Shown piece by piece: positions 6,050 through 57,600 of a stretch of 62,357 nt of DNA (positions are counted from its first letter, which is position 1; each line of letters opens with the position of its first letter). This DNA is from an uncultured Candidatus Saccharibacteria bacterium. Its GTDB lineage: Bacteria > Patescibacteriota > Minisyncoccia > Phycocordibacterales > PCTT01. A program made the position numbers and the translations under genes. The notes under the pieces were generated by a model, which had not been told where the DNA came from, did not search any database, and was given only the letters and a program-made list of their open reading frames with translations. The DNA is taken from assembly GCA_964566505.1 (NCBI GenBank), contig CAZMIM010000004.1, positions 1-62,357 on the forward strand, written 5' to 3'.

Positions 6050-6064
6050 TAACTACAAAGATTA

Positions 6065-11616: not shown

Positions 11617-11624
11617 ATTTATTA

Positions 11625-12593
11625 TTATACCGTGCTTGAAAGAATCTTTGTAAGTCCGTCAGAAAGACTCTTTATACTTACATCATCAATGATAGATGTT
11701 ACAAAAACATCCTCACCAGAAAATAGCTCTCGTGCTTTTTTTACATCTTCATCGTCTACCAAATCCTCTTTTGTAAAAACTATAATATATGGCTTTTCAA
11801 GCATACTCTCATCATATGATGATAGCTCTGTTTTAAGAGCATTAAATGCATTTAAATAATCCTCCTCTTCAAGTGAAATGGTGTACACCAAAAGTCTTGT
11901 TCTAGAAATATGGCGCAAAAACTTATGGCCAAGACCCTTACCGTCAGATGCTCCTTCAATAATCCCAGGAATATCTGCCAAAATATAACCGTAAAGATTC
12001 CCCAAGTGCGGAGAAAGAGTTGTGAAAGCATAGTCAGCAACCTTTGATTGCGCATTTGTAAGAGCATTTAAAAGAGATGACTTTCCAGCGTTTGGAAAAC
12101 CAACAAAACCAGCATCCGCTATCAAACGGATTTCGATATTAAAATTACCAGACTGACCTGGCTTGCCAGGAGTCCATTCTTTTGGAGTTTGGTTTGTTGA
12201 GCTTTTAAAATGCTCATTACCAAGTCCTCCATTCCCCCCTTTTAGAATAAGTATTTTTTCGTCTTCTTCTAGTAGCTCATAAAAATCCCCTGTCTCTGTA
12301 TTGGTAACCATTGAGCCTATAGGCAAATCAAGAACCAAATCTTCTCCAGCCTTTCCATAGAGGCTATTACTTCCTCCTGCTTCACCGCTCTCTGCGTGCA
12401 TTTCTCCTTCTGATGCATATCGCTTTAGAAGCTCAGAGTCACGCACTCCACGAATATACACATCGCCTCCGCGACCACCATTTCCTCCGGCTGGACCACC
12501 TTTTGGTCGAAACTTCTCACGCCGAAAACGAACAACACCTTTCCCGCCGTCCCCTGCCTTTAAATGTAGTTTTATCTCATCAACAAAAGCCAT
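11625..12593 (-). CDS. obg: GTPase Obg (short form without a C-terminal extension)
   Basis: Gly-rich Obg fold (GGNGGRGGDVY, GGNGGLGN) followed by G-domain motifs GFPNAGKSS and DIPG. Confidence 0.9.
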   Translation of the reverse strand: MAFVDEIKLHLKAGDGGKGVVRFRREKFRPKGGPAGGNGGRGGDVYIRGVRDSELLKRYASEGEMHAESGEAGGSNSLYGKAGEDLVLDLPIGSMVTNTETGDFYELLEEDEKILILKGGNGGLGNEHFKSSTNQTPKEWTPGKPGQSGNFNIEIRLIADAGFVGFPNAGKSSLLNALTNAQSKVADYAFTTLSPHLGNLYGYILADIPGIIEGASDGKGLGHKFLRHISRTRLLVYTISLEEEDYLNAFNALKTELSSYDESMLEKPYIIVFTKEDLVDDEDVKKARELFSGEDVFVTSIIDDVSIKSLSDGLTKILSSTV

Positions 12594-12595
12594 AA

Positions 12596-15136: not shown

Positions 15137-15194
15137 ATTTTCAGGATTATAGAGCACAGTATAGCACACCACTAACTCTTTTTACAGACACACA

Positions 15195-38228: not shown

Positions 38229-38904
38229 TGTTCATTTTATCAAGTTTCTGTATCAAATATTCTCTGGATAACTTCTTATACTGAGCTGGTGTATATTTAT
38301 ACAAATCATGCTTTTTAATTATTGGAGAATTCTTTCGCTTCCCTGAATAGTCACCCAAGCTACAAAAATCATAATCCTCAGCCCACTTATATGCCTTATC
38401 AAAATTCTTTATCGCACTTTTCAAGCCTCCTCTATAAAGTTCAAAAGGATTTTTTACATTTACATATATATGAACGAGTTCGAGATAATAATCAGAATCA
38501 ATGGTTTTTGACTTATATGCACCTTGGAAAATACTGCCTTTCTCTTCATATTTATTATTAAAGCTCATCGACATACTGCCGCACAAACTTTGCATAAATT
38601 TCGAAATCCCACCCTCTTCTATTTCTTCTAGAATCAAGTGAAAATGATTTGGCATAAGGCAATATGAAAGTATATTCACAACCGGCTCTCTATCTGCCCA
38701 CTCTTTTGGTCTTTCAAAATGTAGCCCTTTTTTAATAGAAGAAACATCTCTCTCCCAATATTCAGAATGATTTTTGTCATTTAAGTAATAAAGCATTTTT
38801 ATGAATCTCCACTTATCACTATCATCACGAACAATTTCCATACCACGAGCACCTCGCTTTATTACATGAACTATTGATCCTACTGTGTATGGTTCCCTTC
38901 TCAT
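38209..38904 (-). CDS. IS200/Y1-type HUH transposase of the REP-associated (RAYT) kind
   Basis: HUH motif in CLMPNHFHLIL and the Tyr region GSIFQGAYKSKTIDSDYYLELVHIYVNVKNP. It is adjacent to three identical palindromes. Its stop overlaps the LamG gene start by 20 nt. Confidence 0.8.
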   Translation of the reverse strand: MRREPYTVGSIVHVIKRGARGMEIVRDDSDKWRFIKMLYYLNDKNHSEYWERDVSSIKKGLHFERPKEWADREPVVNILSYCLMPNHFHLILEEIEEGGISKFMQSLCGSMSMSFNNKYEEKGSIFQGAYKSKTIDSDYYLELVHIYVNVKNPFELYRGGLKSAIKNFDKAYKWAEDYDFCSLGDYSGKRKNSPIIKKHDLYKYTPAQYKKLSREYLIQKLDKMNNDYVLE

Positions 38905-39671: not shown

Positions 39672-42600
39672 TTAGTTGGTTTGAGGGGTTGTTGTGGCTG
39701 TAGTTTCTGGAGCTTCTGTGGTTTCTACGGTTTCTGTAGTTTCTGTTGTGCTCTCTTCCTCTGTAGTCTCTTGCGAAGCAGGAGTTTCTTCTGTGCTCTC
39801 CTCTACAACTTCTTCAGTTATTACTTCTGCTGTAGTGGTTGCTGTATCCTCTGTAGTTTCCTCTTCTATTACAACTTCAGGTGTTGTTGTGGCTGTCTCT
39901 TCTGTAGTCTCTTCGATAGTTACCTCAGGCGTTGAAGTTGCTTGCTCTTCTGTGCTCTCGTCCTGCGTAGCCTCTGGCGAAGCAGGAGTCTCTGGAAGCT
40001 CTATTGGAGTATCAACTGAAGCTTGCTCTTGCTCTGGTGCTTGCTCTGTTACCTCTGGAGTCTCTTCCTCCACCGTTGCAAGACTATCAAGTGTTCCTTC
40101 TCCAACAATCACGATTCGGTCAACTCTTGCCTCTTCCCCGCTTTGTCCAACTGCCTTGTATGTGATTCGGTATGTTGTATCAAGTGACGTGTCGATTGAA
40201 ACTTGAGCCATCTCTACTCCGTCTACAAATACTGTGTATCCAAGCTCGTTTCCTGTCTCTGTGTCCACTACTCGAGCTCCCATGTCTGAGTACGTTGAGC
40301 CCTTAGCGATTCGTGATGGGTTTACTCCATTTAGTGTAATCTCTGGTGCAAGATTATTTACTACCACACCGCTCTCTTGTGTTTCTTCGTCTTCTACCAC
40401 TACAAGCTCACACTCACCAGCCTCTGAAACCATTGCTCCATTTCGAAGTACTACACAGTATGCGTCTCCTGTTTCTTGATCATAAAGTGTGATTCCTGAT
40501 GGTCGCTCTGGTGTACCTACTGTCAATGTATCTGCGAATAGGTTTGTGAAGTATGCGAATCCATTCTCGATTCGTGCTCCGAGGCTTTGTAAGAAGCCGA
40601 GGAGCGCGTCTTTGAATCCTGTTGTGAATGTTGCCACTGTTGTTGTAGCTGTTGATGTCGCAGTTGAAGTAGAAACTTCAAATACTCCTACAGCAACAGT
40701 TGATGTTGCTACAGAGCCACTTAGCTCGGCAACTTGGGCCTCAAGGTCTGTAAGTCGTGTGTCGAGTGCCTTCACAGCAGATAGTGTTACTGTTGTGAGC
40801 TTGTATAGGTCTACTCCACGACCATCAAGTGATAGAACTTCTGAAGGAGCTTCTTCTGCAATAAGTCCCATGAATCGTGTATCCTTTGTGTTTGTTGATG
40901 TATTGATGCTTGAGCCGTTGATATTTGCTTCATCATCAGAATATGAGTTTGTAAGGCCATCATGTCGTTGCTTGTAGTTGTATGTTGCAACCTTCATTGC
41001 TCGTATAGACTCAAGTGCGTGGTCATAATCAGAGTCAGCAAGATATTCAATATCTTCTTTTTCATCTCGAGTAGAGATATTTACAAATGACTGCGCTGCT
41101 ACATCTCCCATAACATGAAGGTCATATTCTGGTGTTGTAGTACCAATTCCGATTCGTCCTTCAGAGTCTACAAACACTTGTGATGTTACAAAGTTGTATG
41201 TATCAAGAACGAATACTTCGATAAGGTTGTCTGTGCTTCCGCTATTGTATGCTTCAAGTGCTCGAGCAATTACTCGTCCAGAATTTACCTGCTTCATAGC
41301 AACACCTGACTCACTTGAAAGCACAAGATAGTCACCAATCTCAATATCTCCTCCTTCTAGATTTACCTTCAAAGGCACACGACCTTTAAGGGCTACTGGC
41401 ACAGAATTTCCAATTTTCTGCCCAAGAAGGATACCTGGTTTTGTAGACACTATTCCCAAAACATCATCTCCTGCATGCGCTCGTCTTACAAGACCGACAA
41501 CATTCCCTGAAGTTGTCGCTGTATTAAGCGCAACCACTTCTCCAGCAGACAAGGTTGTGTCGAGTGTTGGGTAGTTCTCAGCAAGGTCGATTGCCGTTAC
41601 TGATGCAGACTCTGAATATATATAGCCTCGCGTACGAGATGTATCAGAGCAGTTTTCACCATTGTCATCTACGCACAAGAAGCCTTCGTTTATAACAACG
41701 TCTGAACCAGCATGTATCCTCCCAGAGACCATTAGACTCTCAACTCCTGTTGATACGCCCTTGTAAAACACTTCAAGCCACACAACATCTATATAGTGAT
41801 TTTGTGTATTACTATTGTCCAAAACGTACAAACTGATTCCGAAACCACTATTCTCTACATCTGCCTCAGAAATTGTTGTTCCCCAAAGACTATTTTCGGA
41901 ACCAGCAGTTTTTTCAGTGAATGTCGTATTGAGAACTCCAAAATATTCCGCAGTACCTGCAGCTGAACCAGCCTTCATAATTTGTGCATGCAATTGTGCG
42001 GTGGCTGCACTTAGTGAATAACCTTGTACATACGCCTTTACTCCAGTAACCGTAGCACCATCTGGTATAGAAATTCCAAAATCTGTAACCTCCAGTCTGT
42101 TTGATTGGTTTCCTACAGCAGGTGTTGCTTGTGTGTATGATACATCATCGAGCTGGGCATTTGATGGACTAGACCAAGCATATGAGCCTCCTCCGTCTGC
42201 AAAAGAACCTCCTGTTTTTTTGTTTGTGGTTAATTCAAACTGCGGTATAGCGGAAATGGTTGTGTATACATCGTCATGAGAAAGAGAAATACCTGATGTT
42301 GTTGTCGCTGAGCCTGATCTTCCAACAACAGACATTACCTCTGATGTTGGTGTCTTGTAAAAGACTTCAAGCCATACAACATCTACATAGTGATTTTGTG
42401 TATTACTATTGTCCAAAACGTACAAACTAATTCCGAAACCACTATTCTCTACGTCAGATTTAGAAATTGTAGTGCCCCACATGCTCGTAACGTTTTTTGT
42501 TGAGAGACTAGTATTAAAGATCCCAAAATATTGCGTAGTACCCGCCGCTGATCCTGCTTTCATAATTTGTGCATTAACCTGTCCAGTAGCAGCGGATTGT

Positions 42601-45600
42601 GAATACCCTAAAATAGAAGCTTTAACCCCAACAACCTCAGCATCTGCTGGCAAAGAGAAGTTGAAGTCGGTCAACTCAAGCCTGTTTGATTGGTTTCCTA
42701 CAGCAGGCTGTGCCTGTGTGTACGATACGTCGTCTTCTTTAGCATTTGACGGGCTTGACCAAGCATATGAGCCACCTCCATCTGCAGCTGAGCTAGCAAC
42801 AGATCTCTTAGTTGTTAGTGTTCCAGAGAATGAGCTAGTTGCGTGGAATAAACTTATATTATTATCAAATGTACCAACTCGAATACCATTTGAAATACCT
42901 GAACCATATACATTAAGTTGTGTTTCTGGTGTTGATGTTCCGATTCCTACGCTTCCTGTATCAAAGTAAATATCACTTCCATTTTGTGACCACAGTCCTC
43001 CAAGCGAGCCCCATGCTGAACCATTGTATCCTTCAAATCCGCTTGTTGTTGTGTTGTATCGGATAGTTCCAGCGTATCCTGTTGGACGTTGTGCTGTTGT
43101 ACCTACTGGAATCACCATACCGTCAGTCCCGTGTACAGAAAATGTTACATGTGGTGATGTTGTTCCTACTCCTAAATTACCTCCATTGAAGTATGAAGCT
43201 CCCGCAGTTTGAATATCGACATCTGCATTGTTCCCAGAATCATAAATTCTAAACCTGTTGTTAACACCACCATTAAATCCAAGATTTGTGTCACCTGACA
43301 CTGTTGTCATGTTTAGAGAACCACTTGAGTTTGAACCAAGAGTTACAAAGTTTCCTGCTGAATATGTAAGTTTAAGTTGCTGTGCTGTATCTGCAATTGT
43401 AAGTGCGGTGTCTGGAGTTGTGGTTCCAACACCAACATATCCATTACCAGCACCGTTGAGCACAAGGTTGTCTGTATTGTGGTTCATCTCTATGAAGGTG
43501 TTGTTGAGGGTTCCTGAATCGTTTTGTGACTGAATCTTTGATGTACCTCCGTTGATTTGGAAGTTTATTGTTTTTTCGTTTGATGTGCCTCCAGAGTCAT
43601 AGAGTATAAGTCCTGCTGATTGTGACCCTTCTGCATAGAAGCGTCCGTCTGTATTACCTGTACCTATTGCTACTCCATCTTCTGTGCCACCGTCGAATAC
43701 CCAGGATAGTGAAGCGTCACCTGATATAGAAAGCTTTGTGTCTGGTGAGGTGTTTCCTATACCGACGTTGCCATTAGAATCAATTCTCATTGATTCATTT
43801 GCATTTCTGTACACACCACTTGCACCTGTACCAAAGACTATGTCGGCGTAAGCACCTATAAATAAATCAGTGTCATTATAAATACCAAGACCTACAACAT
43901 TATCTGCACCGTCAGATGTTCGAGAAAAACCAATAGCTCCTCCAGATGAGCTGTAATCTGAAATATTAGAGAGGGTTCCTAGTGTTGAGATGGTAACATT
44001 TTCATTACTTGCTACTTGAACATCAAGTGTGGCGTCTGGACTTCCCGTACCTATTCCCACATCACCTCCAGAATATGAGTTCAAAAGAAGATCTGTCGCA
44101 TCTATTCTAAGGTTTTTGTATGTATTATCTGCATCGTTTATTGCCCAGATTCCTTCAAATGATCCTAGTGTACCTATCTTAAGTTGAGAGTCGGATACTC
44201 CGGAGTCGATATGGAGCTTTGATTCTGGAGATGCTGTGCCAATACCTAGATAACCCTCTTCTGTAAGGCGCATTCTCTCATTTGAAGCAGCAACTTTGTT
44301 TGCATCATTTGTCCCATCTACAAACCAAACAAAATCTCCGAGCCCGTTTCCTGTTACACCTCCCGCCTCAAAACCAAAGAATGCCTTCACAGGGTTTGAC
44401 CCTAGCGCATAACCTGTTCCAACATATCGTGTCGATGCATATGTATCATGTTGGAGCACGAGGCCTTCATCTACATCAAACCCTCCTGTGTATAGGCCAA
44501 TTTCTGCGTTTGAGTTTGCAGATGCGTGTGTTGTTATTTGACCTGATACGAGTGCATTGCCTGCAAAAGTAGCATTCTGTGACGAGTCAAGTGTAAGTGC
44601 ATCTGCATCTCCTGACTGTAGAACAAGTGCGTCAGTAGCGTGATTGTATTCAATTCCTCCTGCGTAGTTGTCTCCTTCATCTGCAAACATCAAGTAACCA
44701 ATATCTGAGCTGGTTGTAAGAACAGAAATTGCAGCAGAAGTATTATCCTCTACTCCAATTCGTGAAAGGCTGTGGAATGCACCTCCTGATGCACCTGCAT
44801 ATACCTCAAGCTCTTGTCCTGGTGTTGTAGTTCCAATACCAACATATCCTGTTGTGTTTTTAATAGTAAGTGCGTCTGTAAGGGTTGGTGCACCTGAGCC
44901 TGTTGAGTGTCCTGTTCGGAAAATAAGGTCTGTACCATCACCATCTTCTGCAATAGCCTCAATATCAGCCATAACACCTGTGCTTCCTGTAGATGCGTCT
45001 GATGAATAGAACTGAATCTTTCCAATTGTATTATCTGTTGTGACTGTTGTGTCATCTGTTGAAAGAGTGAATACAGCGCCATCTGTATCTGCAACTGAAA
45101 GCTTTGTAAGTGGTGAAGTGGTTCCGATACCTACCCGCTCATTCTGGATTCCCCCTGAACCGTCTGACTCTGCGTATACGGTAAGGATTGGGTTTGCATC
45201 TATTTGTGCTGAATAGCTTTGTACTGTTGCAGCTGCCGCAGCTGATGTTACTGGTAAATCTACCCAAGAAACGATTCCTGCGTTTGTATCAAATGAAAGT
45301 GCTCCGAGTTCTACATTGTCGATAGATGTAACACCTGATGAGAAGTCGTGTGTAAATGCTCCACTGTCGATTACCAATCCACCATTGAATGTAGATGTTG
45401 CTGTGGTTGATGTAGCTGTAAAATTCTCTGCTACGACCTCCCCTACTACTGAAAGTTTTGCGTATGGAGATGTAGTTCCAATTCCAACATTTCCGCCATC
45501 CAAAACAGTCATAGAATAAGACAAAGTCCCTCCGCCGTCCCAGCTTGTTCCCCCGCCAAAATATATGCTGCCATTAGCAGCAGCAATTGCTGAAGGATTG

Positions 45601-48600
45601 CCAGCGCCCGCGCTATCCATATTACCTATCAAAATTGCTGGTGCTCCCGACCCAGAAGACAAGGAAAGTCTTGTATTTGAAGAATTGTATACAGATAAAT
45701 TATCTGGAGGTGTTGTAGTTCCAATACCTACGTTTCCAGCAGAAGCCGAATTAAGTATTAGATTTGAGGCGTCTATACGTAGATTCTTAAAAGATGAGGC
45801 ATCTCTATCATAGGTTTGTATATATCCATAGTCATTAGATCCGTCTATTCTATACTGCACTTCAATACCCTTACCAGAAGTTGGAGAATCCAGTGAAGAC
45901 ACTGCCAGGTGCCTTGTCCCTCCTGATATTTCCAAAGACTGTTCTGGGGTTGTTGTGCCAATTCCTACGTTTCCTGTTGAGTCAACAACCATTCTCCAAT
46001 TAGTATTTGTATAGCCAGCTATTCCAGCGCTTCTTCCTGTTGCAAAATACAAACTTCCAGTTGTTCCAATAGTTGCGCTGTTACTGTATTCATTTCCAAC
46101 AGCGAATGTCATTTCCTGAGGGCTAACCGATTCCTCTCTCAAACGAATAGTAGGAACATCGTCTTGTTGGATAAGCATCGTGTCATAAGACACGTGTGTA
46201 GCATTTGCTGAATTTGAATTATTAAGAATCAAAGACTTAGAACCTGAATACCAAGACTTATTTACTTCAAGTTGTGCATCCGGAGTATTGTCACCAATAC
46301 CTACGTTTCCTGAGGTGTTAATAAACAATCTTTCAGTTCCTCCTCCTGTTGTAAAGCTAAGATTTCCTTGTGCACGAAGTGTTGTGTCCTCTTCATATCC
46401 AGCTGTATTTGATACAAGATGATACCTAGTGCCGAGATATGCCTCTGCTGTACCTCCTTTTTCAAACTGTATATATCCTCCGTATGTACCTGTACCATTA
46501 AATATTGCCAAACCACTACTTGAGCTTTCTACATCAAGTGGTGCATCTGGTGTTGAATCACCGACCCCAAAATTACCTCCTGTTATATAGTTGCTTGTAT
46601 TTGTACCAAATTGAACCTCTGTAGTTCCTCCGCTGTCTTTTAGCCGTAGTATTCCTTCTGCTCCATCTTGATATACCTGAAGCATATCGTTGTAGCTGTA
46701 TGTTCCATCGTATGTTGTAATAAATGGATAGTTTCCAGAACCAGCAGATACTGCCTCAAGTCGTGCGCCTGGTGAAGATGTTCCTATACCTACGTTACCA
46801 GCAGATGTAACGTCCATAACTCGATTTCCATTTGTCACAAAAGATAAATCATTTGTGTTTGGATTATATATTCCTGAGTCAGTTCCAGATCCAAAAGTTC
46901 CTGAACCTGAAAATCTTAGTGCTCCACCAGCTATTTCCAATTTTGAAGCAGGGTCAGTAACACCAATACCTACAAGCCCTGTTTCTGTAATTGTTACTCT
47001 ATCTGTTTCATTTGTTTGGAATCTAAGATCTCGTGAACCAGAGTTGTGACCTATATTCATAGCATTACCATCAAGAGTTATGTATCCTGCGTAGCCACTT
47101 CCTGTTATTTGGAGATGTCCTGTACCACTTGAGTTTGGGCTAATATTTGAAGCTGATGATATATGCAAAGGAGATGCTGGTGCCGATGTTCCAATACCTA
47201 CGTTACCGCCAGAACCTTCAATAAATATTCGAGCATATGTTAGTGGATCAGTATCAAGATCTGAAACTCCAGAACCAGCTGAAAGGTAAAGGTCTCCGTT
47301 GTATTGTGAGTAGATTCCAGCCCGTACATCAGATGTAATACCAGCAGAAGTGTCATTTCGCTGTGCAAATCCAATACCTACAGCGTCTGTTGTAAGGTTT
47401 GAGCTTTTTCGGTGGAACACTGCTGAAGTAGTTGCTGTTCCTGTAACATGGAACTGATACTGTGGTGATGTCTGCCCCACACCAACATCTCCGTCATTTG
47501 CCAAAAATAGTGTGTCCACAGTAGGTGCATTTCCTGTTGATGAGCCATACCCAAGTGTCATTCCTGAACCAGCATAGTATGTCAAGAATGGATCGTTCCC
47601 ATCAAATCCGTATGAATTGAAGTATCCCCCAGCAGATTTCTCGAGTGTAAGAGTGTTGGCACTGTCTAGGACATGGAGCTTAGAACTTGGACTAGTTTCC
47701 GCTATTCCAACGTTTCCTGCACCATCAATAATCATACGTCGTGTAAGAGTTGATGATGTATTTGATGTATAAAATTCAAGATTTCCTCCATTTGTATTTG
47801 TTGGATATGCAGCAGACCTTATAGAAGCTTGATCATTTGCGATAGAGCCTGAAGTTGTTCCATAGAATTTAAGGTCGTTACTTCCTGCAGAAGCCGTGTA
47901 CCCTGTAAGATCAATTCTAATATCTCCAGCAACATGAAGTGCGTCTTGTGGTGTTGTTGTTCCGATTCCTACATTTCCAGCTCCTGTTACTACAAACAAA
48001 TCACTTCCTGTTGAAAGGTTTGTTGGTGTGTATGTGTTACTTCGGATTCGTAGTGGATATGTAGAAGCGTCATTTGCTACGGTACTCAAGAGAAGACCAT
48101 TGTATGTAGAAGAGTTTGTGTCGTTGTTTATCACAGCAGCATATCCAGCAGCTCCAGCATTTGAGTCCACATGGAATGCTCCCTTGGGTGAAGTAGTTCC
48201 GATTCCCACGTTTCCATTTGCCAATGCCTCAAAAATAGGTGTTGATCCACCATTACCAGACAAACTTAGTACGGGAATACTTCCAGTATCATCACTCCTT
48301 ATTTCCAACCCATAATCAACAGTATCAAATTGGGCAGCCCACTCTCCAGTATCTGCTTGATTTATTTGAAGACCTCGATCATTATCTGACGAACCAACGT
48401 TAATCTCTAGTTTCTCTGACGGAGTTTCTGTATTTATACCCATTCTTCCAGAAGAATCGATCGTTATAATATTAGAACCAGAATTATCAAATTCATAATT
48501 CAAAGCATCAAAACGAAGCGTGTCGTACGAGGAATCACCCCTGTTATATGATTGAATAGTAGAAGCTCCAGAAGTTGTACCTGGGACAACTTCAACACCT

Positions 48601-51600
48601 TCGTCACCACCATTTGATACAGCAAGTTTTTGTAAAGGATTAGTTGTTCCGATTCCTACGTTTCCTTGATGCCCTATAGTAAGAGCTGTGTTTGTTATAC
48701 CAGTACCATAATTATTTGATGTTCCAAAAGCGAGATAAGAACCTGAGCTAGTGAATCGTGCACCTACACGGACGTCTGGAGTATTACTTATATCATCATA
48801 TGATGCCTCGATGAGTGAGATATAATTTCCATCTGAATAATCCGTCTGCGTCACCCTTAAACCTTCTCCATCAGTACCTCCAGTAAAAGTTGAACCGAGC
48901 TTATTGGTAGTCTCAATTTCAAGAGGGTTTTGTGGGTTCGAAGTACCAATACCTACGTTTCCGCCATTAATAACCATCCTTGAACCAATTCCATCTTCTG
49001 AAAATACAAAGTAGTCACTGCCTGTATCGTAATAAAGAGAGAATTCATCTGTGCTTCCATCACTAAACTGGAGCTCTGGATTTCCTGAAGAAGCATCAAT
49101 CTTAATCTTTGAACTTGCACCATATACATCCAATAGCGCATTTGGTGTTGTGGTTCCAATTCCTACGTTTCCACCCACAAGACGCATGACTTCAGTACCA
49201 TTAGCCTCAAGAACTAGGCTACTATCTGCACTTAACCCTTTTACTGCCGCTATTTCATCAGTAACTGTGTCATAGAAACGTATTACAGATTGAGTTGTGC
49301 CAGTATCTCGAATTCGTAATTCAGCCGCTGCTCCCTCAATATCAAGCAACACGTCTGGTGTTGTAGTTCCGATTCCTACGTTTCCGCTATCCAAAATTGT
49401 CATTAAATCAGAACCAGTATAACTTCTGAATTTAATACCATCTGTAGCACTGTTGTCTGTGCTTGCAATAAAGGTTCCATCAGTTGTACCCCATAAAATT
49501 GGTCTATTTATAGAATATGCCCAAGACGCATTTATTGTTCCGTTATTAATAAGCAGGTCTCCATTATCGATTTCAAGCTTCTCTCTAGGGCTCGTAGTTC
49601 CAATACCTACGTTTCCTGTTTCATCAATTCTTAATGCATCTACAAGCGACCCATCTTCTCCTGTCTGGAACTGAAGACCCACTTTTGGAGCTCCACTCTC
49701 TGCAATACCAAGAATTCGCGCAGAAACACCTGGATTCCCAGTATCTGTAGTCTCAAAATCTATTGCACCAATAATGTCGTCTTCAAATATTGCCGTATCG
49801 TCTCTTCTAAGTTTAAGCGTTGAATCACTTGCATGGTTTATTACCAGCGTCTCATCTGGTGTTGATGTGCCTATTCCCACATCACCACTTTGGTTAAATG
49901 TCATTACTTCTGTTGCAGGAAGCCCTCCGCTGATATCACCGAATCCAAAGCTAAAGTAGTTGTTACTTCCACCTGATGTATTTGTAAGAGAAAGACCTCC
50001 TCTTCCAGATCCTATTGCCTCATATCCCAACAACACTCCTCGTGAAGACCTGTCTCCACCAACTCTCAAAGTTCCATTTGCGTTTGAAGACCCGTCATAT
50101 ACATGCAGATTATTTAGAGGAGATGTGGTGCCAATTCCAACGTTTCCTGCTGATGTAATAATGGCATCTACTCCTGAGTCTCCTGCGGTAAATTCGATAT
50201 CTGTTTGGGTGGCTAGTGTTAGGTCTCCTCTGTTTGAGCGCAAATCTGCATCTGTACCATCGTGTGAAAGCTCGACATAGTCTAGTGTAGACGAAGAATC
50301 TGCTGCCCTAATATAACCAACTGTATGTAGTGCCCTTGCAGGAGAAGCTGTACCAATACCTACACGGTTTGTAGAGTAGTCATACACCAAACCTGAAGTC
50401 TCTACCGCAAATCCTCCTGCAAATGTTGATGTGGCTGATGTAGAATCTGCTATGAAGTTTGAAGCTGTTGCAGAACTTGACACATCCAGCGCTCCGGTGA
50501 TGGATGTGTTGCTTCCAAGACTAAATGTGTCTGTTGATCCTGTATACAGAAGGCTTCCTGTTGCATCTGAATCGGTCATTCGGAGACGAACATTTGCATC
50601 TGTAGATACAACTTCAAAGGCGTTATCAGTGGTTCCACCATTGATAGTAGCAACCCCCGCATCAAGAGTGCCCGTAGTGGTGATGTTCTTAGCTTGGAAA
50701 TCCCACTCTCCTGCGGAATGATCGTAATACAGAATCGTGCCGGTTCCTGCTCTCCATCGAACATCACTGGCAACAGTGGCGTGTGAACCGCCGTACAGCG
50801 TCAGATTAGCACCCGCGTTCGTGGCTTGATCCCCGGAGATTACAAGGGATGAATTAGATGCTAGCTGTACGAGATAGTTTGATTCCAGTCTGGCGTTGGC
50901 AACGTCTACTCTGCCATCAGTTGACAGGTTCTCATTCCCAAAGTCAATCGCCCCGCTTGCGCTTGTGATAGAACCAGAGGCAAGGGTGAGGTCTGAGTCT
51001 ATTTCTGTACTTCCTGCTACATCAAGTAATGCTGAAGGAGAGGCTGTACCAATACCAACATTTCCATCCTTATCAATCCTTAAATGTTCTGAATCAGAAC
51101 CACCGTCTGAAGTATAGAAAGCGAGAAATGAATCTGCAGAACCCGCAGCTTCTGTGTATGCAGAGCTTCTACCAGAAACAATCTTACCTGCTGTTTGATT
51201 ATCATAACCCTCAAATATAAGACTGGCTGTGTCTGCAGTATTGTTGTAATTTGTGCTTGCTATAGTAAGAGCAACGTCTCCCCCGTTTGCATCTCTTTCT
51301 ATATGGAGCCTAGTATCAGGACTCGCAGTACCAATACCTACTCGATTTGTAGAGTAGTCATAAACAAGACCTGTTGTCTCTACCGCAAATCCTCCTGCAA
51401 ATGTTGATGTTGCTGTAGCAGAATCTGCGATAAAGTTTGAAGCTGTTGCTGATCCACTAACATCTAAATCCCCCGCGCTCAGGGTTACGTCACCTGCGAA
51501 GGTGGCATTCGCATCTTGCTCAATCTTGAAAGCATTGACATCTGACCCGCCGTTATAAACGTCGATGTTAAAACTATTATCTGTTCCCTGCCTTATTCCG

Positions 51601-54600
51601 TAGTACGCCCCATCACCAACAAACTCGTAAATACCGCTACTTGGTGAAACATCAACCGTATTTGATGCTGTAGCCCTTGCATAAATAGTGTCTGTAACTG
51701 TTAACAAGCCCGACACATCCAATGTGCCTGTGATTGAGGTGTTTCCTTCCAACGAAGAAGGCCCGCGAAGACGCACATCCCCACCAGTCTCAGCCCATAT
51801 ACTTAGGTCTCCACTGCTTGAATTTGCGTACATGGACGCGTCCCCTCCGCCAAAGCCTGATGTGCCGTTCAGTGAAAATCCTGTACCAGTCACGTCAGTA
51901 TACAAGTATCCAGTTTGCGATCCTGGTTCAGTCCACGAAAAGCCGTATTGGTCAGAGCTTGTGAATGTGATATCCACGCTGCCCGAGAACGTAGCCGACC
52001 CACTTGCAAAGGTACCTGTAGTACTCAAATCCTCGTCCCCAAAACTAATAGCTCCACTTGCAGAGGTTATTGAACCTGAAGTTAGAGTAAGGTCGTTATC
52101 TATGAGAGCTGTGCCTGCTGTTGCATCCACAAAGATAGCGTTTGTACTTCCTGCTTCTCCTGCTCTGAAATCTCCATCTACATCAAGCAAGTACTCAGGG
52201 GTAGTTGTACCAACACCAACATTTCCTAAGTCTCCATCTATATATAATCTAGAGTTAAGAACACCAATGCTGTTGGATAGCTTAAAGTTAAGATTAGTCC
52301 CATCCTTGTCTGCATTTCTCTCAGCAACAATATGCCCCTCACCTGTATTAGCTCCTGTGGTTCCTGCGTCATTTTGGAAGATAACAGAACCGAAAGAATC
52401 GTCTGTGTCGTTTGCATCACCATATATTCTAAATTCAGGGCTTGTGGCATTAGACCCATCCCCAACTTGAAGTTCGGAGCTAGGGTTTGTTGTACCAACA
52501 CCAACATTTCCAGAGCTCCCTTGTACAAAGAGTGCATCTGTTACTCCGCTTGCTTCTACGCGGAAATCGATATCATCTCCATCGTTGTTTATTATCAGCT
52601 CGTCTTGTGTAGTTTCGTTTAGCGTAATGAAGTCTTGCCCTCCTGCTACAAGAGCCAGATTGTCTGTACCTCCTCGATAAATTCCAGTATCCGTATCTGC
52701 TGAAAATGAATATGCTGGAGCAGATTCACTTCCATCTGCTGCAAGAAATGTTCCTGTAAGTGATAGTGAGCCGTCTGAATAAAGCGTTCCATCTATCTCA
52801 AGGTCGCCTGAGATGTATGCACTGTTGTATTGGTTGGCTGTAGCGATGCTGTCTGGTGTAGAAGAACCTACAGTCAAAAGAACTGTTGGTGTAACTGTTG
52901 CTATACCGACCTTTCCAGAGTTTGTAAGTATAGATAAGTGTGTACCAACTCCTGTTTCTGTAATCTGGAAATCACTAGATTCATTTTCAAGACGGAATGT
53001 TGTTGAGTCGCCTTCCAAGTGAAGTTGTGGGAATGAGCTGTCTATAGTGATATCGTCTGCGGTTTCTAGCGTTCCTGCAAAAGTGGTTGAAAGATCTGAA
53101 AAATCAAAGCTAACCAAAGATGATCCTCCTTCTCTTTTTAGAGCAAGAGATTGTGTACCTCCTTCAAAATAGTTTGCATCATATGTTCCAGTGCCATATA
53201 CAAACATTCTGCTTCCATACGGTACAGTTACATCGCCTGCAAATATTGCGTTTTGTGAGGAGTCGAGAGTGAGGGCTGTGGTACCACCAGTTACAACCTG
53301 TACTGTGTTTGCACTAGACTCGTAAAGATATGTATCTCCGGCACCATCTAGCCACAGCTGATCTGTTGCGTCTACTCCCATACCATTTGAAGTAACAAAT
53401 GCCCCACGAGAACCTCCTGCGTATAGAGAAATTACGTCAGCACTAGATTCTTCAATATATGTATTTGAACCACCGTCGAGGTACAAGTTGTTTGTGGCAG
53501 GAATAGCAACATAGCTATTACCAACTTGGAATCTATATGAACCTCCTGTTACAAGCTGTATTGTGTCTGCTGCGCTCTCTGTAAGATATGTATTTGAGCC
53601 GCCATCTAAGTATAGGTTGTCTGCTGATGGGATACTTAGATTTCCTGCAAATGCTGCATCTTGTGAACTGTCGAGAGTAAGAGCTACTGTTCCGTTTCCT
53701 GAAATGATTGATGTAGAAGCACCTGTTTTTTCTGAACCAATTCTAAACAGGTCTCCGTCATAATCCCAAACAAGTTTTGCTCCGAATGTGTCTGAAGGTG
53801 AGCCAAATGCCAAATATGAATTATTTGCATCTGGTGAGTAAACAGATATTCCAGAATTTCCGCTATTTTCTACTACCAAATCATCTGCATCTGTGTGTGC
53901 TGAGCCAAGCCCTGAAGCACCTGAGTACACATTAAGTTTTCCAATAGGTGATGTGGTTCCGATTCCTACATTTGAAGAAGTGTCTATTGTCAAAGCTGTT
54001 CCACTGCTATTTCTAATCTTGAAATCTCCTGATGAACTTCCTTCATTTAGAAGAGTCCAAAGCGCCGCTGATCCTCCAAGCTCGAGTGCAGAGTCGTTGC
54101 CAGCAGATGCGTTTACTTTTGCATACACGTTTCCTGAACCTTCTACTTGGAACTCTCGTGTTGGAGATGTTGTACCTACTCCAACAAAACCAGAAGCATC
54201 TATTGCAATACCATCTGTTGCACTTCCGCTTGCTGTACGAAGAATACGTAGAACATCAGCTGAGTTGTCTAGGAACATAGAAGCACCTATTGTTGTAGTT
54301 TCTTGATCATAGAAATCTACTCGAGGATCGTTTGAACCACTTGAGCCGAGCGCAAGCACCGGACCATTTGCCTCTAGGTGAAGTAGTGAGTTTGGTGTTG
54401 TGGTTCCGATTCCTACATTTCCTGAGGTGAATGCAGTGTCACCTACAGGATTTCGGATGATGAGGTCGTCGTTGTTATCAAGACCTATTATATTTCTAAG
54501 CGTGCCACCCGCGTCATCCCACCAAAGATACTTGTTATTTGTAAGCGCAATACCTCCATCTACATGAAGCTCTTTTTCTGGCGACGCTGTTCCAATACCT

Positions 54601-57600
54601 ACTCGGTTTGTAGAGTAGTCATATACCAACCCTGAAGTCTCGACTGCAAATCCTCCTGCAAATGTAGATGTTGCGCTTGTAGATGTAGCTGTGAAATATG
54701 GAGCCTCAACAAAGCTATATGATGTGAGTTTGCCTGTTGTTGTTGCTGCGCCACCAAATGAAACATCTCCTGTAAATGTAGAAGTGTCTCCAATGCTTGC
54801 AACATATCCCGCTGTTGAACCATCCGCTGAACCTCTGTAAATCTCAAAACCAAGTGAAGACTGATCATTATCAGTATCTATATACACACGAGCTGGACCA
54901 CCAGAAACAAGCCTAAACTCACCGTCAGATGTATTTGAAGATGCATATGTGTATACAGAAGATGAGTTAAGGCGTAACTCCTCCAACGCAGAAAGAATTA
55001 CTTGACCAGCAAAAGTGGCATCCTGTGAGCTATCTATTGTAAGAGCTGCTGTGCCTCCTGTTACCAAAGCAAGTGAGTCGGATGCATCTCCTCCAAGTCC
55101 TGTGTCTAGGTCTGCGGAACGAGGAACAAATGATGGAGTAGTGAGTGAGGCTCCGCCACCACGGATGTAACCACCTCCTCCTGTTGGAGAAAGAACATTT
55201 GAGATAAACACCCACTGATTTGAACCAGCCAAGCTCACTCGAAGGTTGTCGTCTGCGCTTTCATAGAATCCTGTGTCACCATCTCCAAATGCGATTGATG
55301 GAGTAGCTGCATCGTTTACTGTTGGTACTAAAAGTGAGTTTGTGGCTGTGGCTGATGTAGCAACAAAATCAGATGCAACCACTTGCCCCACTACAGATAA
55401 TTTTGCATACGGACTAGATGTTCCAATACCTACATTTCCTGCCCCAGTAACAGCAAGACCTACGTTGCTTCCTGAGTAATCTCTTACAAGAAGTGAGTAT
55501 GTTGAGTTTGTATTACCCGCATCAATGTTTACACCGTATCCTCCAGAAGAATCATCATTTTCAAATCGGGCGATGTAATCATTATCAACTGTTGCATCTA
55601 CATCAAGCCTGAATGAAGGATTTGCTGTACCGATTCCTACATTTCCATCAGCTCCTACATTGAACAGATTGTTGCCAGAGAAGTCTCGAAGTCGTAGAAG
55701 GTCTGCCGTTTGTCCTGATGTCCCTTCGATATCGAGCGTAACGATTGTTGTAGTTGAGTTGTCGTTTTGAAGATTGATTGGTTGGTTGAAGTCGAATCGT
55801 TCTGTGCTTGAATCCCATGAAAGCACTGCGTTTGGAGATGAAAGTCCTCGGTAGAATACAAATGACATGTCCTCTGTGTCTGCTGTAGGGTTGTCTGCGT
55901 TTAGTGTGAATGTTGAGTTGTTTGTTCCTGAGATTGTTGTAGAAGAAACAGAAAGGTTATTTACGTTAAGTTCATTGATGAAGCCAAGTTGCCAATATTT
56001 TGCTGGTGAACCAAGGTCGTATGTGTTGTTTGCACTTGGCACAAGGTCTGACTCTACCTCACCTGTGAGTGTAAGTGTGTCTGCTGAAGTATCCCCAAAT
56101 GCCACGCTTCCTAGTACTGTGAGGTCACCATTGAATGTTGAGGTTCCTGTGGTTGATGTGGCAACAAAATATGGAGCCTCAACAAAGCTGTATGATGAAA
56201 GCTTTCCTGTAGTTGTAGCTGCACCTTGTGCCAAAAGATCGTTATGGATTGTTGTGTTTCCATCTGTTCCGATTGTGATATCTGCTCCAGCAGAAGCTCT
56301 AAGGATAAGGTCGTTGTATCCAGAGCTTGTGATATCACGACCAATAACTTCACCATATCCTGACCCTTGTGTTATATCCACACCATCTGTTGCTGTTCCA
56401 AAGAGCCCTCGAAGTGATGTCAGTGTCCCTGTAGTTGAAAGATTTTCATTTCCAAATGAAATTGATCCTGTTGAATCTGTTATAGAACCAGTGGCAATTG
56501 AAAGTGTGTCGATAAGCGCTGATGATGTTGCTGTCAGTGTTGATGAAGTAAGTGAGCCATCAAAGTATCCATTTCCTGCAACTGAGAACAATGCAAATGG
56601 TGATGTGGTGCCAATACCAACATTTCCTGAAGAATCAATTGTTAGACGCTCTGTTGTTGCCGTCCACAAACTCAAACTATTTTCTAAATTGTCATATTGC
56701 ACAAGGCCAGCTTGACCAGAAACCGTGTCTCCCAAACCAATTTGAGCTAATCCTGATGTCCCTGAAATAATTTGAATTTCTGCATTTGTAGAACCAGCCC
56801 CACTATTTTGGAATATAGCAACAGTTGGAGAATTTCCTAAAACAGGAGTACCTGAGGTAAGCACGTTCAATGTTTTTGTAGGACTAGCAGTACCAATACC
56901 TACTCGATTTGTTTGATAGTCATATACCAACCCTGATGTCTCTACTGCAAACCCTCCTGCAAAGGTGCTAGTTGCTGTGGTTGATGTTGCGATAAATGAA
57001 GAAGCTGTTACCAAACCATCAAAGATACCGCTTCCTGCAACACCAAGTCGCGCACCCGGTGTTGTACTTCCAATACCAAGAAATCCTCCCGTTGTGAGAG
57101 TCATTTGTTCTGAACCTGAAACATTAAATCCGTAATCGAGAGCATCAAATGTACCGTTTGCATAAACAGAACCTCCAGTGTTGTAGAACTGGAATGTGCT
57201 TGCTGTCCTTATCACACCGGGTACATCAAGTGCTTGCCCTGGTGTGTCTGTACCAATACCTACTCGGTTGTTGATTGAGTCTACATAGAGCGTGTTTGAA
57301 TCAACTGCCAAGTCTCCTGCAAAAGTTGATGTTGCAAGTGTAGAAGTGGCTGTGAAATATGGAGCCTCAACAAAGCTGTAAGATGAAAGTTTTCCTGTGG
57401 TTGTGGCTGTACCAGCAATCAAGCTTGTGATGTATGCATTTGTTGTAGTAGCTGTTGTAAAGAAGCTATCTGTTGCGCGCAAATTAGTTGCAAATGCATT
57501 TGTAGTGGTTGCATTGGTTGTGGTGCTATTTGTTGCTGTGAGGTTTGTAGCAAAACTATTTGTTGATGTAGCGTTTGTAGTAGTTGCATTTGTAGCAGTG

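What the first reader, a model, noticed from the sequence alone, without database searches (positions are those of the whole stretch)
40718..41075. S74-type intramolecular chaperone domain sits 350 aa before the C-terminus, not at it
In tail fibres and endosialidases this domain is C-terminal. It catalyses trimer folding and then cleaves itself off at the conserved Ser. Here the equivalent Ser (aa ~6163, codon 41073-41075, in NIS-TRDEKEDIEYL) is followed by the chaperone-like region and then another ~350 aa. Those comprise a T-rich spacer, a GITLYDQETGDAYCVVLRNG...GEC motif, an Ig-like DUF5011-type domain and a ~140-aa acidic T/E tail. If autoproteolysis occurs, a 467-aa fragment with its own binding-type domain would be released from a ~6,160-aa fibre.
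Basis: partly seen in the sequence, partly recalled or inferred. Interest (0 to 1): 0.65.

Follow-up and report, generated by a model that had tools for sequence, protein, structure and literature searches.

The report
Internal self-cleaving chaperone in giant fibre
A 6,629-residue membrane-anchored surface fibre of an ultrasmall (Patescibacteria-type) bacterium carries a genuine phage-type "fold-then-cut" chaperone domain 467 residues before its end; this is the usual layout in the phylum but I found no paper describing it, and whether the domain actually cuts is untested.

Summary
The ORF 39672..59561 (-) encodes 6,629 aa. Ser6163 is codon 41073-41075, and Lys6168 sits at +5. The YxY and GxIAEE motifs and a 35-40-residue helix follow.

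The Pfam S74 match is marginal: 23.3 bits against a cut-off of 22. A family profile supports it much better. It hits the solved MyRF ICA domain at E=1.5e-8, with the catalytic Ser and Lys aligned, and Foldseek agrees.

After the chaperone come 339 residues:
- a T-rich spacer;
- a helix plus disulfide-hairpin cassette;
- an Ig-like domain;
- a 143-aa T/E tail with net charge -44.

No membrane helix follows the chaperone.

The layout is not peculiar to this gene. All 24 giant homologues that could be aligned share it. So do 21 of 29 informative S74 genes from a 201-genome sample of the phylum. The Ser-Lys pair is kept in 182 of 188 related domains, so cleavage is probably retained.

Internal S74-type chaperone domains are already known in MYRF and in Oenococcus phage X27. 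The hairpin cassette also occurs without S74 in other genomes, so it is an independent C-terminal module.

My best reading is a trimerisation nucleus and built-in breakpoint that detaches a 50-kDa assembly or anchor module. Cleavage itself has not been shown.

The parts
39672..59561 (-). Giant ORF, 6,629 aa plus stop. It reads: N-terminal HTH domains, one membrane helix, a ~5,900-aa fibre with about 40 GxGIGTxxP nodes, S74, C-terminal extension.
59139..59285 (-). HTH_17 / excisionase-type domain (aa 93-141), on the cytoplasmic side of the anchor
   Evidence: Pfam E=4.3e-9; TIGR01764 E=5.7e-11
58803..58859 (-). The only predicted membrane helix (aa 235-253, LVASVLVTAVVAFPVLGVM)
   Evidence: It is the only 19-residue Kyte-Doolittle window scoring >=1.5 in the whole protein, at 2.49
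41208..41579 (-). Beta-tulip-like domain (aa ~5995-6118) just before the last fibre node. This would be the distal end of the mature fibre.
   Evidence: AlphaFold pLDDT 72-97. Best Foldseek PDB hit is the phi29 gp12 C-terminal fragment 3GQH, E=1.7e-4, probability 1.00. Pfam gives only sub-threshold hits: Phage_cement_2 19.9 bits and Peptidase_G2 15 bits.
41112..41156 (-). Last fibre 'capping-loop' node RIGIGTTTPEYDLHV (aa 6136-6150), directly upstream of the cleavage site
   Evidence: Aligns with MyRF GRVGINTDRPDEALVV in 7DC3. Same motif class as the Bdellovibrio MAT capping loops.
41073..41078 (-). Predicted scissile bond Ile6162|Ser6163. The Ser6163 codon is 41073-41075.
   Evidence: Ser is conserved in 183 of 183 relatives that have the column. 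By homology with MyRF P586|S587 and Bd3182 S782.
41058..41060 (-). Lys6168, the general base of the Ser-Lys dyad (S-T-R-D-E-K)
   Evidence: Aligned to MyRF K592; Lys in 184 of 188 relatives
40692..41075 (-). S74 / ICA domain (aa 6163-6290). It contains Y6194-x-Y6196, G6232-L-I-A-E-E and the long helix aa 6252-6290.
40878..40964 (-). ~29-aa low-confidence insertion inside the S74 domain (aa 6200-6228). Most homologues lack it, and it depresses the Pfam score.
   Evidence: Alignment; pLDDT 50-59
40623..40691 (-). T-rich spacer (aa 6291-6313, 39% Thr), predicted disordered
40407..40622 (-). C-terminal cassette (aa 6314-6385): amphipathic helix, beta strands, and the hairpin LTVGTPERPSGITLYDQETGDAYC6369...GEC6384
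   Evidence: pLDDT 80-93. The motif is in 116 of 218 relatives. It also occurs without S74 in other genomes.
40104..40340 (-). Ig-like domain, Bact_surface_Ig-like / DUF5011 (aa 6408-6486)
   Evidence: Pfam E=6.5e-9; pLDDT >90; PDB 2KPN E=3.9e-9
39675..40103 (-). Acidic low-complexity tail (aa 6487-6629): 29% Thr, 28% Glu, net charge -44, ending ...TATTTPQTN

Best explanation
The gene encodes a giant trimeric surface fibre of a Patescibacteria-type bacterium. The fibre is anchored in the cell membrane by a single N-terminal helix, with two HTH domains left inside the cell. Near its distal end sits a genuine S74 / ICA domain of the MyRF-like kind. Inferred mechanism: once the chain is outside, the three ICA helices (aa 6252-6290) form a coiled coil. 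The coiled coil sets the register and nucleates the beta-helical fibre upstream. Trimerisation then assembles the Ser6163-Lys6168 centre, which cuts the Ile6162|Ser6163 bond. That would leave a 6,162-aa (636-kDa) membrane-anchored fibre ending in a beta-tulip domain plus one last capping-loop turn. It would also leave a separate 467-aa (50-kDa, pI 4.05) piece: the ICA, a helix/disulfide-hairpin cassette, an Ig-like domain and a strongly acidic tail. My reading is that this piece is a detachable assembly or anchoring module, not the working tip of the fibre. I say this because the cassette is an independent C-terminal module of surface proteins in this lineage. Shown here: the domain identity, the conserved catalytic residues, the domain order, and conservation of the layout across the family and phylum. 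Inferred: trimerisation, cleavage, and the fate of the fragment.
For: Domain identity:
- Pfam S74 scores 23.3 bits on the isolated domain.
- The family profile hits MyRF ICA 7DC3 at E=1.5e-8 with Ser and Lys aligned.
- Foldseek gives 7DC3 at probability 1.00 and finds phage S74 proteins.
- tblastn hits Bacillus phage tail fibres at E=6e-6.

Catalytic machinery kept:
- Ser and Lys are both present in 182 of 188 S74 domains of relatives.
- Y6194/Y6196 and G6232/I6234/A6235 are nearly invariant. They correspond to MyRF Y615/Y617 and to I637, which that paper mutated.

Layout conserved:
- In all 24 giant homologues that could be aligned, the match to the query's S74 region ends 209-357 aa before the C-terminus.
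- In 187 related domains the Ser-to-end distance has a median of 332 aa and a minimum of 150.
- In an even sample of 201 genomes of the phylum, 49 carry S74. Of the 29 informative best loci, 21 have >=216 aa from Ser to stop and only 5 have the canonical ~100 aa.

Other points:
- Fibre kinship: the GxGIGTxxP nodes match Bdellovibrio MAT fibre structures 8OND, 8OJN and 8OL4. In that family S74 cleavage at S782 was shown, and S782A blocked it.
- The cassette is independent. In four other genomes it follows non-S74 domains: no S74 was found with the family HMM at E<=1 in any of them, and none with Pfam at E<=10 in the two segments I scanned.
- The context is chromosomal, with SecA, Obg, GatB and RNase J, and synteny with homologue loci.
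Against: - No experiment or proteomic datum shows cleavage of any member of this family.
- The Pfam score is marginal, and a 29-aa insertion interrupts the domain.
- AlphaFold was run on a monomer only, so neither trimer geometry nor the active-site arrangement was checked.
- The post-S74 region is mosaic among homologues: two alternative beta modules and 0-2 Ig-like domains. That pattern is typical of receptor-binding tips. It argues that the fragment has a binding job rather than being a disposable assembly aid.
- For phage X27, the authors themselves leave open whether an internal chaperone domain cuts.
Confidence: 0.6

Rival explanations
1. The domain cleaves, but the 467-aa trimeric piece is the functional distal cap. 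It either stays bound non-covalently to the fibre tip as the adhesin, acting as a breakable joint, or it is shed as a soluble trimeric lectin.
For: The post-S74 region carries a well-folded Ig-like domain (E=6.5e-9, pLDDT >90). It is shuffled between homologues like a specificity module. Many S74 genes elsewhere in the phylum end in lectin-like beta-sandwiches, with weak Pfam hits to K1-lyase_C and H_lectin. Both S74 subtypes occur with both downstream module types.
Against: The MyRF paper reports almost no contact between its ICA domain and the upstream stalk. No long beta-hairpin 'tentacle' is predicted here. Retention after cleavage therefore has no obvious structural basis. The hairpin cassette and acidic tail also occur on proteins without S74 or Ig domains.
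Confidence: 0.25
2. The S74-like domain has lost protease activity and serves only as a trimerisation and folding module. The Ig-like tip then stays covalently attached as the end of the fibre.
For: The Pfam score is low, with an insertion in the domain. The X27 authors raise this possibility for their internal chaperone domain. A binding-type domain downstream of a cut site looks wasteful.
Against: The Ser-Lys dyad is conserved in 182 of 188 relatives. The YxY and GxIAxE motifs that line the MyRF cleavage centre are also kept. Residues that served only folding would not be expected to be held this tightly.
Confidence: 0.15
3. The gene is a phage or prophage tail-fibre gene, or the S74 match is a chance hit.
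For: PHROGs tail-fibre families match the repeats. The nearest S74 sequence matches in the phage collection are Bacillus phage tail fibres. An IS200-type transposase gene lies 3' of the ORF.
Against: No phage structural, packaging or lysis genes were found among the 20 neighbouring ORFs scanned. The neighbours include housekeeping genes (SecA, Obg, GatB, RNase J) together with cell-surface and polysaccharide genes. The locus is syntenic with homologue loci. The protein has an N-terminal HTH plus membrane anchor. A profile hit at E=1.5e-8 with aligned catalytic residues excludes chance.
Confidence: 0.03

Closest known systems
Bdellovibrio bacteriovorus MAT (mosaic adhesive trimer) fibres, S74 subgroup, e.g. 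Bd3182 (PMC10769870)
   Same: A chromosomally encoded bacterial surface fibre built from phage-like beta-helix. It has the same repeated capping-loop motif (V-G-x-x-x-x-P-x-x-x-L; here GNVGIGTTSPxxxL, about 40 copies). It has an S74 domain with an S-x4-K motif near the distal end. Tips are mosaic between paralogues. The family profile hits MAT crystal structures at E=8e-12 to 6e-5.
   Different: In MAT proteins the S74 domain ends the protein: 141 aa from S782 to the end of Bd3182. Here 467 aa run from the Ser to the end. MAT proteins are about 1,000 aa, with a signal peptide and a conserved ~130-aa N-terminal beta domain. This protein is 6,629 aa with cytoplasmic HTH domains and a membrane anchor.
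MYRF / MrfA ICA domain (PDB 7DC3; PMC8326128, PMC3828593)
   Same: It is the best sequence and fold match to the S74 region among solved structures, and it too is an internal ICA domain followed by several hundred residues. It shares the Ser-Lys dyad, the YxY motif, the coiled-coil helix and the preceding capping-loop turn.
   Different: [quoted passage not shown] Here the membrane helix (aa 235-253) lies between the HTH and the ICA, and no membrane helix follows the ICA. Cleavage is therefore extracellular and cannot release the HTH.
Phage C-terminal intramolecular chaperone domains (Peptidase_S74: K1F endosialidase 3GW6, T5 pb1 4UW8, Bacillus phage tail fibres)
   Same: Same family, same catalytic motif, and the same position directly after a trimeric beta-helix.
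   Different: The phage domains are terminal. The T5 pb1 chaperone is the last 133 aa. In phages Slash, Flapjack and McSteamy the match ends 2-24 aa before the stop. No long tentacle hairpins are predicted here.
Oenococcus phage X27 / Vinitor 162 Tal protein with two consecutive chaperone domains (PMC12403621)
   Same: It has an internal, MyRF-like, tentacle-less chaperone domain with an intact Ser-Lys dyad, followed by about 360 more residues. Whether the internal copy cuts is an open question there too.
   Different: What follows in X27 is a second beta-helix / beta-prism / chaperone unit. Here it is a hairpin cassette, an Ig-like domain and an acidic tail. X27 Tal is a virion protein, not a cellular one.

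Membership tests
Peptidase_S74 / ICA domain (PF13884) | Profile match above the curated threshold | tested here: met
   Marginal for this sequence: 23.3 bits against a cut-off of 22 for the isolated 150-aa piece, and 17.3-19.9 bits in longer pieces. PF13884 is precomputed for 19 of 27 giant homologues.
Peptidase_S74 / ICA domain (PF13884) | Ser-Lys catalytic dyad with S-x4-K spacing | tested here: met
   S6163-T-R-D-E-K6168, aligned to MyRF S587 (Ala in the crystal) and K592. Both residues are present in 182 of 188 relatives.
Peptidase_S74 / ICA domain (PF13884) | Conserved residues lining the cleavage centre (YxY, GxIAxE) | tested here: met
   Y6194, Y6196, G6232, I6234 and A6235 are nearly invariant in the family alignment. 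MyRF Y615, Y617 and I637 are the equivalents.
Peptidase_S74 / ICA domain (PF13884) | ICA fold ending in a long helix that forms the trimeric coiled coil | tested here: met
   Profile against 7DC3 gives E=1.5e-8 over 131 profile positions. Foldseek gives 7DC3 at probability 1.00, TM 0.52-0.56. The helix at aa 6252-6290 has pLDDT about 90. The trimer state itself was not modelled.
Peptidase_S74 / ICA domain (PF13884) | Autoproteolysis on trimerisation | not testable with these tools
   Needs protein expression with S6163A and K6168A controls, or proteomics.
Phage-type terminal intramolecular chaperone (endoNF, T5 pb1) | The chaperone is the C-terminal end of the protein | tested here: not met
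   339 aa follow the ICA helix, and 467 aa run from Ser to the end. Phage comparators end 2-24 aa after the match.
MYRF-type membrane-tethered transcription factor | [quoted passage not shown] | tested here: not met
   The only membrane helix is aa 235-253, between the HTH and the ICA. The maximum hydropathy after aa 6160 is 1.14.
Bdellovibrio MAT fibre family | Repeated capping-loop beta-helix motif | tested here: met
   40-44 nodes counted. The profile hits 8OND at E=8e-12, and 8OJN, 8OL4, 8OML and 8ON4.
Bdellovibrio MAT fibre family | Conserved ~130-aa beta-rich domain directly after a signal peptide | not tested
   The N-terminus here is HTH_17 plus a membrane anchor. I made no comparison with the MAT N-terminal domain.
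Peptidase_G2 (phi29 gp12 auto-chaperone), considered for the domain upstream of S74 | Profile match above threshold across the cleavage domain | tested here: not met
   15 bits against a cut-off of 25, covering only positions 49-99 of 228. Fold resemblance only: 3GQH E=1.7e-4, 3SUC.
T4 fibritin foldon, considered for the disulfide hairpin | Detectable sequence relationship to foldon-containing chains | tested here: not met
   A 36-sequence profile of the hairpin found no PDB chain at E<=10. The resemblance was recalled from memory only.

The most novel reading that the evidence does not exclude
Patescibacteria may have turned the phage self-cleaving chaperone into a general built-in breakpoint for surface fibres. 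A lineage-specific C-terminal cassette (helix, disulfide hairpin, acidic tail, optional Ig-like domains) would hold or register the last-exported ends of three giant chains at the cell surface. The S74 cut would then convert that covalent link into a releasable one. The effect would be to free the finished fibre tip, or to leave a force-breakable joint that lets the cell let go of its host without tearing its own membrane.
Probability: 0.2. Interest if true: 0.75.

Novelty: new variant of a known kind. Interest (0 to 1): 0.5.

Why it matters
All cultivated Patescibacteria live attached to other microbes, and how they recognise and hold their hosts is largely unknown beyond type IV pili. This organism spends 3% of a 632-kb genome on one fibre gene.

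S74 chaperone domains are known as disposable end-caps of phage fibres and of Bdellovibrio prey-recognition fibres. In this phylum most S74 genes instead place the cut site in front of further folded domains. If the cut happens, every such fibre is made as two pieces.

That bears on three things: how a 636-kDa trimer is assembled outside the cell, what its real tip is, and whether a lectin-like piece is shed or kept. The question is directly testable with one recombinant fragment and a Ser-to-Ala control.

I found no description of this family in the searchable literature.

Tried and rejected
1. Foldon-like reading of the GITLYD...C...GEC hairpin. A 36-sequence profile found nothing in the PDB at E<=10, so it stays an unsupported recollection.

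2. MYRF-like release of the N-terminal HTH. Rejected, because the only membrane helix lies before the ICA, not after it.

3. Prophage origin. Rejected on gene context and synteny.

4. The helix-and-hairpin as part of an extended S74 domain. Rejected, because the same cassette follows non-S74 domains in four other genomes.

5. My family-specific S74 HMM was too narrow for a phylum-wide census, finding only 5 of 30 loci. I replaced it by translating from the Pfam match coordinates.

6. A genuine G2-type auto-chaperone upstream of S74. Only sub-threshold Pfam evidence exists alongside the fold resemblance, so I do not claim it.

7. Literature searches for S74 together with Patescibacteria or CPR returned nothing relevant.

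8. The neighbourhood look-up for P0009 failed because the protein exceeds the tool's length limit.

9. No conserved processing-enzyme gene was seen next to the 3' end of the giant gene in two homologue loci.
Full report
**What is there.** The window carries one uninterrupted minus-strand ORF, 39672..59561, of 6,629 codons. The genome it belongs to is 632 kb in 8 contigs and 97% complete. Named homologues all come from Patescibacteria/Parcubacteria groups: Kaiserbacteria, Taylorbacteria, Paceibacterota, Sungbacteria and Portnoybacteria. The neighbouring genes include housekeeping, cell-surface and polysaccharide genes: SecA, Obg, GatB, RNase J, glycosyltransferases, LamG and PKD surface proteins, and a VirD4-like ATPase. 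Two homologue loci show the same GatB/Obg/SecA ... giant gene ... LamG/GAPDH neighbourhood. This is therefore a resident chromosomal gene, not a prophage gene.

**Overall build of the protein.**
- It starts with an excisionase-type HTH.
- It has a single hydrophobic helix at aa 235-253, the only 19-residue window with hydropathy >=1.5 in the whole protein.
- About 5,900 residues follow, rich in S/T/G/N/A, with 40-44 GxGIGTxxP nodes.
- These repeats match phage tail-fibre PHROGs.
- As a profile, they match the crystal structures of Bdellovibrio MAT fibres (8OND E=8e-12; 8OJN, 8OL4, 8OML, 8ON4).
- In MAT fibres the same motif forms the 'capping loops' of a trimeric beta-helix (PMC10769870).
- The solved MAT tips give about 0.40-0.44 Å per residue: 135 aa for 60 Å and 370 aa for 150 Å. 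At that ratio the ectodomain would be roughly 0.25 µm long. This is an extrapolation, not a measurement.

**Checking the observation.**
- NISTRDEKEDIEYL begins at aa 6161.
- Pfam Peptidase_S74 is below threshold when long pieces are scanned (17.3 and 19.9 bits against 22). It is just above threshold (23.3 bits, E=8e-5) for the isolated 150-aa piece.
- The weakness is explained by a 29-aa insertion (aa 6200-6228) that most homologues lack.
- A 40-sequence family alignment, searched as a profile against all PDB sequences, hits the MyRF ICA domain (7DC3) at E=1.5e-8. Ser6163 falls on the Ser587 position (Ala in the crystal) and Lys6168 on Lys592. The preceding node RIGIGTTTPEYDLHV falls on MyRF GRVGINTDRPDEALVV.
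- The MyRF paper equates S587/K592 with endoNF S911/K916 and maps the cut to P586|S587. It shows that Y615 and Y617 flank the site (PMC8326128). The equivalents here, Y6194 and Y6196, and G6232-L-I-A-E-E are nearly invariant in the family.
- An AlphaFold model of aa 6125-6500 (pLDDT 76.7) retrieves 7DC3 at probability 1.00 (TM 0.53-0.56). It also retrieves phage 'Peptidase S74 domain-containing' proteins.
- The S74 region also matches Bacillus phage tail fibres by tblastn (E=6e-6).

The domain is real.

**What follows the S74 domain.**
- The long ICA helix ends at about aa 6290, and 339 residues remain.
- T-rich spacer: aa 6291-6313, 39% Thr, pLDDT <50.
- Helix and hairpin: a short amphipathic helix and beta strands end in the hairpin LTVGTPERPSGITLYDQETGDAYC...GEC (aa 6314-6385, pLDDT 80-93). 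Cys6369 and Cys6384 are two of only four cysteines in the whole protein.
- Ig-like domain: a Bact_surface_Ig-like (DUF5011) domain at aa 6408-6486 (E=6.5e-9, pLDDT >90).
- Tail: 143 aa, 29% Thr and 28% Glu, net charge -44.
- No membrane helix follows the ICA (maximum hydropathy 1.14).
- The fragment from Ser6163 to the end is 467 aa, 50.0 kDa, pI 4.05. The rest is 6,162 aa, 636 kDa.

**How unusual the layout is.**
- Against phages it is unusual. In phages Slash, Flapjack and McSteamy the homologous match ends 2, 4 and 24 residues before the stop. The T5 pb1 chaperone is the last 133 aa. The 13 Bdellovibrio S74 fibres 'terminate' in the domain.
- Within this lineage it is the rule. Twenty-seven giant homologues (3.6-7.9 thousand aa) were found. 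In all 24 that could be aligned, the match to the query's S74 region ends 209-357 aa before the end.
- An exhaustive search of 1.84 billion representative proteins gave 11,589 hits at E<=0.001 and 182 at E<=1e-30.
- Over 187 related domains the Ser-to-end distance has a median of 332 aa and a minimum of 150. This set is biased, because the query included the extension.
- An unbiased check used Pfam S74 on 201 evenly drawn genomes of the phylum. It found the domain in 49. Of the 29 informative best loci, 21 have >=216 aa from Ser to stop, three have 150-180 aa, and only five have the canonical ~100 aa. Many of the extended ones end in a beta-sandwich (...FDWWIVxxE) with weak resemblance to K1-lyase_C or H-type lectin domains.
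- Precedents for an internal position exist. In MYRF the ICA lies in front of a membrane helix and a luminal domain. In the Tal protein of Oenococcus phage X27, the first of two consecutive chaperone domains is internal, and the authors leave its cleavage open (PMC12403621).

**Does it cut?** This cannot be shown here. The best computational proxy is selection on the catalytic residues. Ser is present in 183 of 183 relatives that have the column, Lys in 184 of 188, and both in 182 of 188. That conservation holds even though every one of these domains is internal. The S-x4-K motif is also present in all 30 loci of the phylum sample: SD-x-[RK]-x-K in 28 and SS-x-R-Y-K in two. Conservation this tight is hard to explain if the domain served only as a folding nucleus. 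I put cleavage at about 0.7-0.8.

**What the extension is for.**
- Among homologues the region after the coiled coil is mosaic. It has either the disulfide hairpin or an alternative beta-sandwich, then 0-2 Ig-like domains, then T/P/E-rich tails. Both S74 sequence subtypes occur with both module types.
- In the 218 relatives collected, the hairpin motif occurs in 116. An S74 domain lies upstream in every case I could check: 104 by the family HMM, and 7 of 7 further cases by Pfam.
- A profile of the hairpin searched over 201 genomes of the phylum found it in 7, four of them in the window's own class. In four of these genomes the helix-hairpin-acidic-tail cassette does not follow S74. In G004 and G053 it follows a beta-barrel domain; in G101 the preceding domain is unidentified, and in G195 the frame is cut by the contig start. 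The family S74 HMM found nothing at E<=1 in any of the four. Pfam found nothing at E<=10 in the two segments I scanned, from G004 and G053.
- The cassette is therefore an independent C-terminal module of surface proteins in this lineage, not an appendix of the chaperone.
- A conserved C-terminal module shared by otherwise different surface proteins suggests a role in biogenesis, sorting or anchoring. Placing a self-cleaving domain in front of it would allow it to be removed or released afterwards.
- This is why I favour 'detachable assembly or anchor module' over 'released adhesin'. The mosaic Ig-like and lectin-like content keeps the second reading alive.

**The mature tip.**
- A second model (aa 5930-6300, pLDDT 71.7) shows a well-predicted beta domain at aa ~5995-6118.
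- Its best PDB match is the C-terminal fragment of phi29 gp12 (3GQH, E=1.7e-4, probability 1.00; also 3SUC).
- The next matches are phage decoration and cement proteins, which I recognise as the beta-tulip class.
- From my own knowledge, that gp12 fragment is the other known type of phage auto-chaperone, Peptidase_G2.
- Sequence support is sub-threshold: Peptidase_G2 15 bits against 25, and Phage_cement_2 19.9 bits against 24.
- One relative, P0195, reaches the G2 threshold (25.5 bits) ahead of a weak S74 match.
- I record the domain as a fold resemblance only.

**Comparison and verdict.** The protein works most like an S74-type Bdellovibrio MAT fibre scaled up six-fold and tethered by an N-terminal membrane helix. 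Its chaperone domain is most like MyRF's. It meets the sequence and fold criteria of the S74/ICA family. It fails the 'terminal' habit of the phage members and the topology that defines MYRF-type factor release. Earlier notes of this scan report the same architecture in more than 100 other genomes. I treated these as leads. My own census and my cassette-without-S74 result agree with them. I found no published description. The finding is a correct, well-read instance of an apparently undescribed but lineage-wide variant of a known mechanism. Its key step, cleavage, and its purpose remain to be shown.

Noticed in passing
window 41208-41579 (-), aa ~5995-6118: The domain just upstream of the S74 site is a beta-tulip-like fold. 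Its best PDB match is the phi29 gp12 C-terminal fragment (3GQH, 3SUC), followed by phage cement and decoration proteins. From my own knowledge that gp12 fragment is the G2-type auto-chaperone. Pfam Peptidase_G2 and Phage_cement_2 are only sub-threshold. Two kinds of phage 'chaperone-like' modules may therefore sit in tandem.
   Followed up: partly
L037 (G004:C62), L036 (G053:C3), L035 (G101:C3), L039 (G195:C2): The helix + disulfide-hairpin + acidic/T-rich tail cassette that follows S74 in the window also ends surface proteins that have no detectable S74. In L037 and L036 it comes directly after the beta-barrel (beta-tulip-like) domain.
   Followed up: partly
C-termini of homologues P0004, P0006, P0008, P0010, P0011, P0016, P0021, P0023, P0025 and others; window 39675-39700: Many relatives end exactly in ...[ST]TTP (16 of 218 end 'TTP'), and another subgroup ends '...VVE'. 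The window protein ends TATTTPQTN. This could be a terminal motif or just low-complexity sequence.
   Followed up: partly
window ORF, aa 5963, 5971, 6369, 6384: The 6,629-aa protein has only four cysteines, in two close pairs. One pair lies before the beta-tulip domain and one in the post-S74 hairpin, which suggests two local disulfides in an otherwise Cys-free extracellular fibre.
   Followed up: no
P0010 (aa 4366-4596), P0023 (aa 4297-4519), P0078: Three relatives carry two S74 domain starts in tandem, reminiscent of the double chaperone in the phage X27 Tal protein.
   Followed up: no
L040, L041 versus window 10204-15172 and 35619-38228: Homologue loci keep GatB/Obg/SecA on the upstream side of the giant gene and LamG-domain proteins and GAPDH on the downstream side. 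In the window the same SecA-Obg-GatB block lies about 25 kb beyond the 3' end of the giant gene, so the locus has been rearranged.
   Followed up: partly
window 38209-38904 (-) and 33575-35509 (-): An IS200-like (Y1_Tnp) transposase gene lies about 770 nt downstream of the giant gene's stop codon, beyond one 214-aa ORF. A VirD4/TrwB-like coupling ATPase gene lies further downstream, next to LamG and LTD/PKD surface-protein genes.
   Followed up: no
PDB 9B4H chain X: An 8,572-residue 'C-type lectin domain-containing protein' in the PDB matches the Ig-like domain of the family profile (E=1.4e-5). It is a solved giant protein that might be a useful structural comparator.
   Followed up: no
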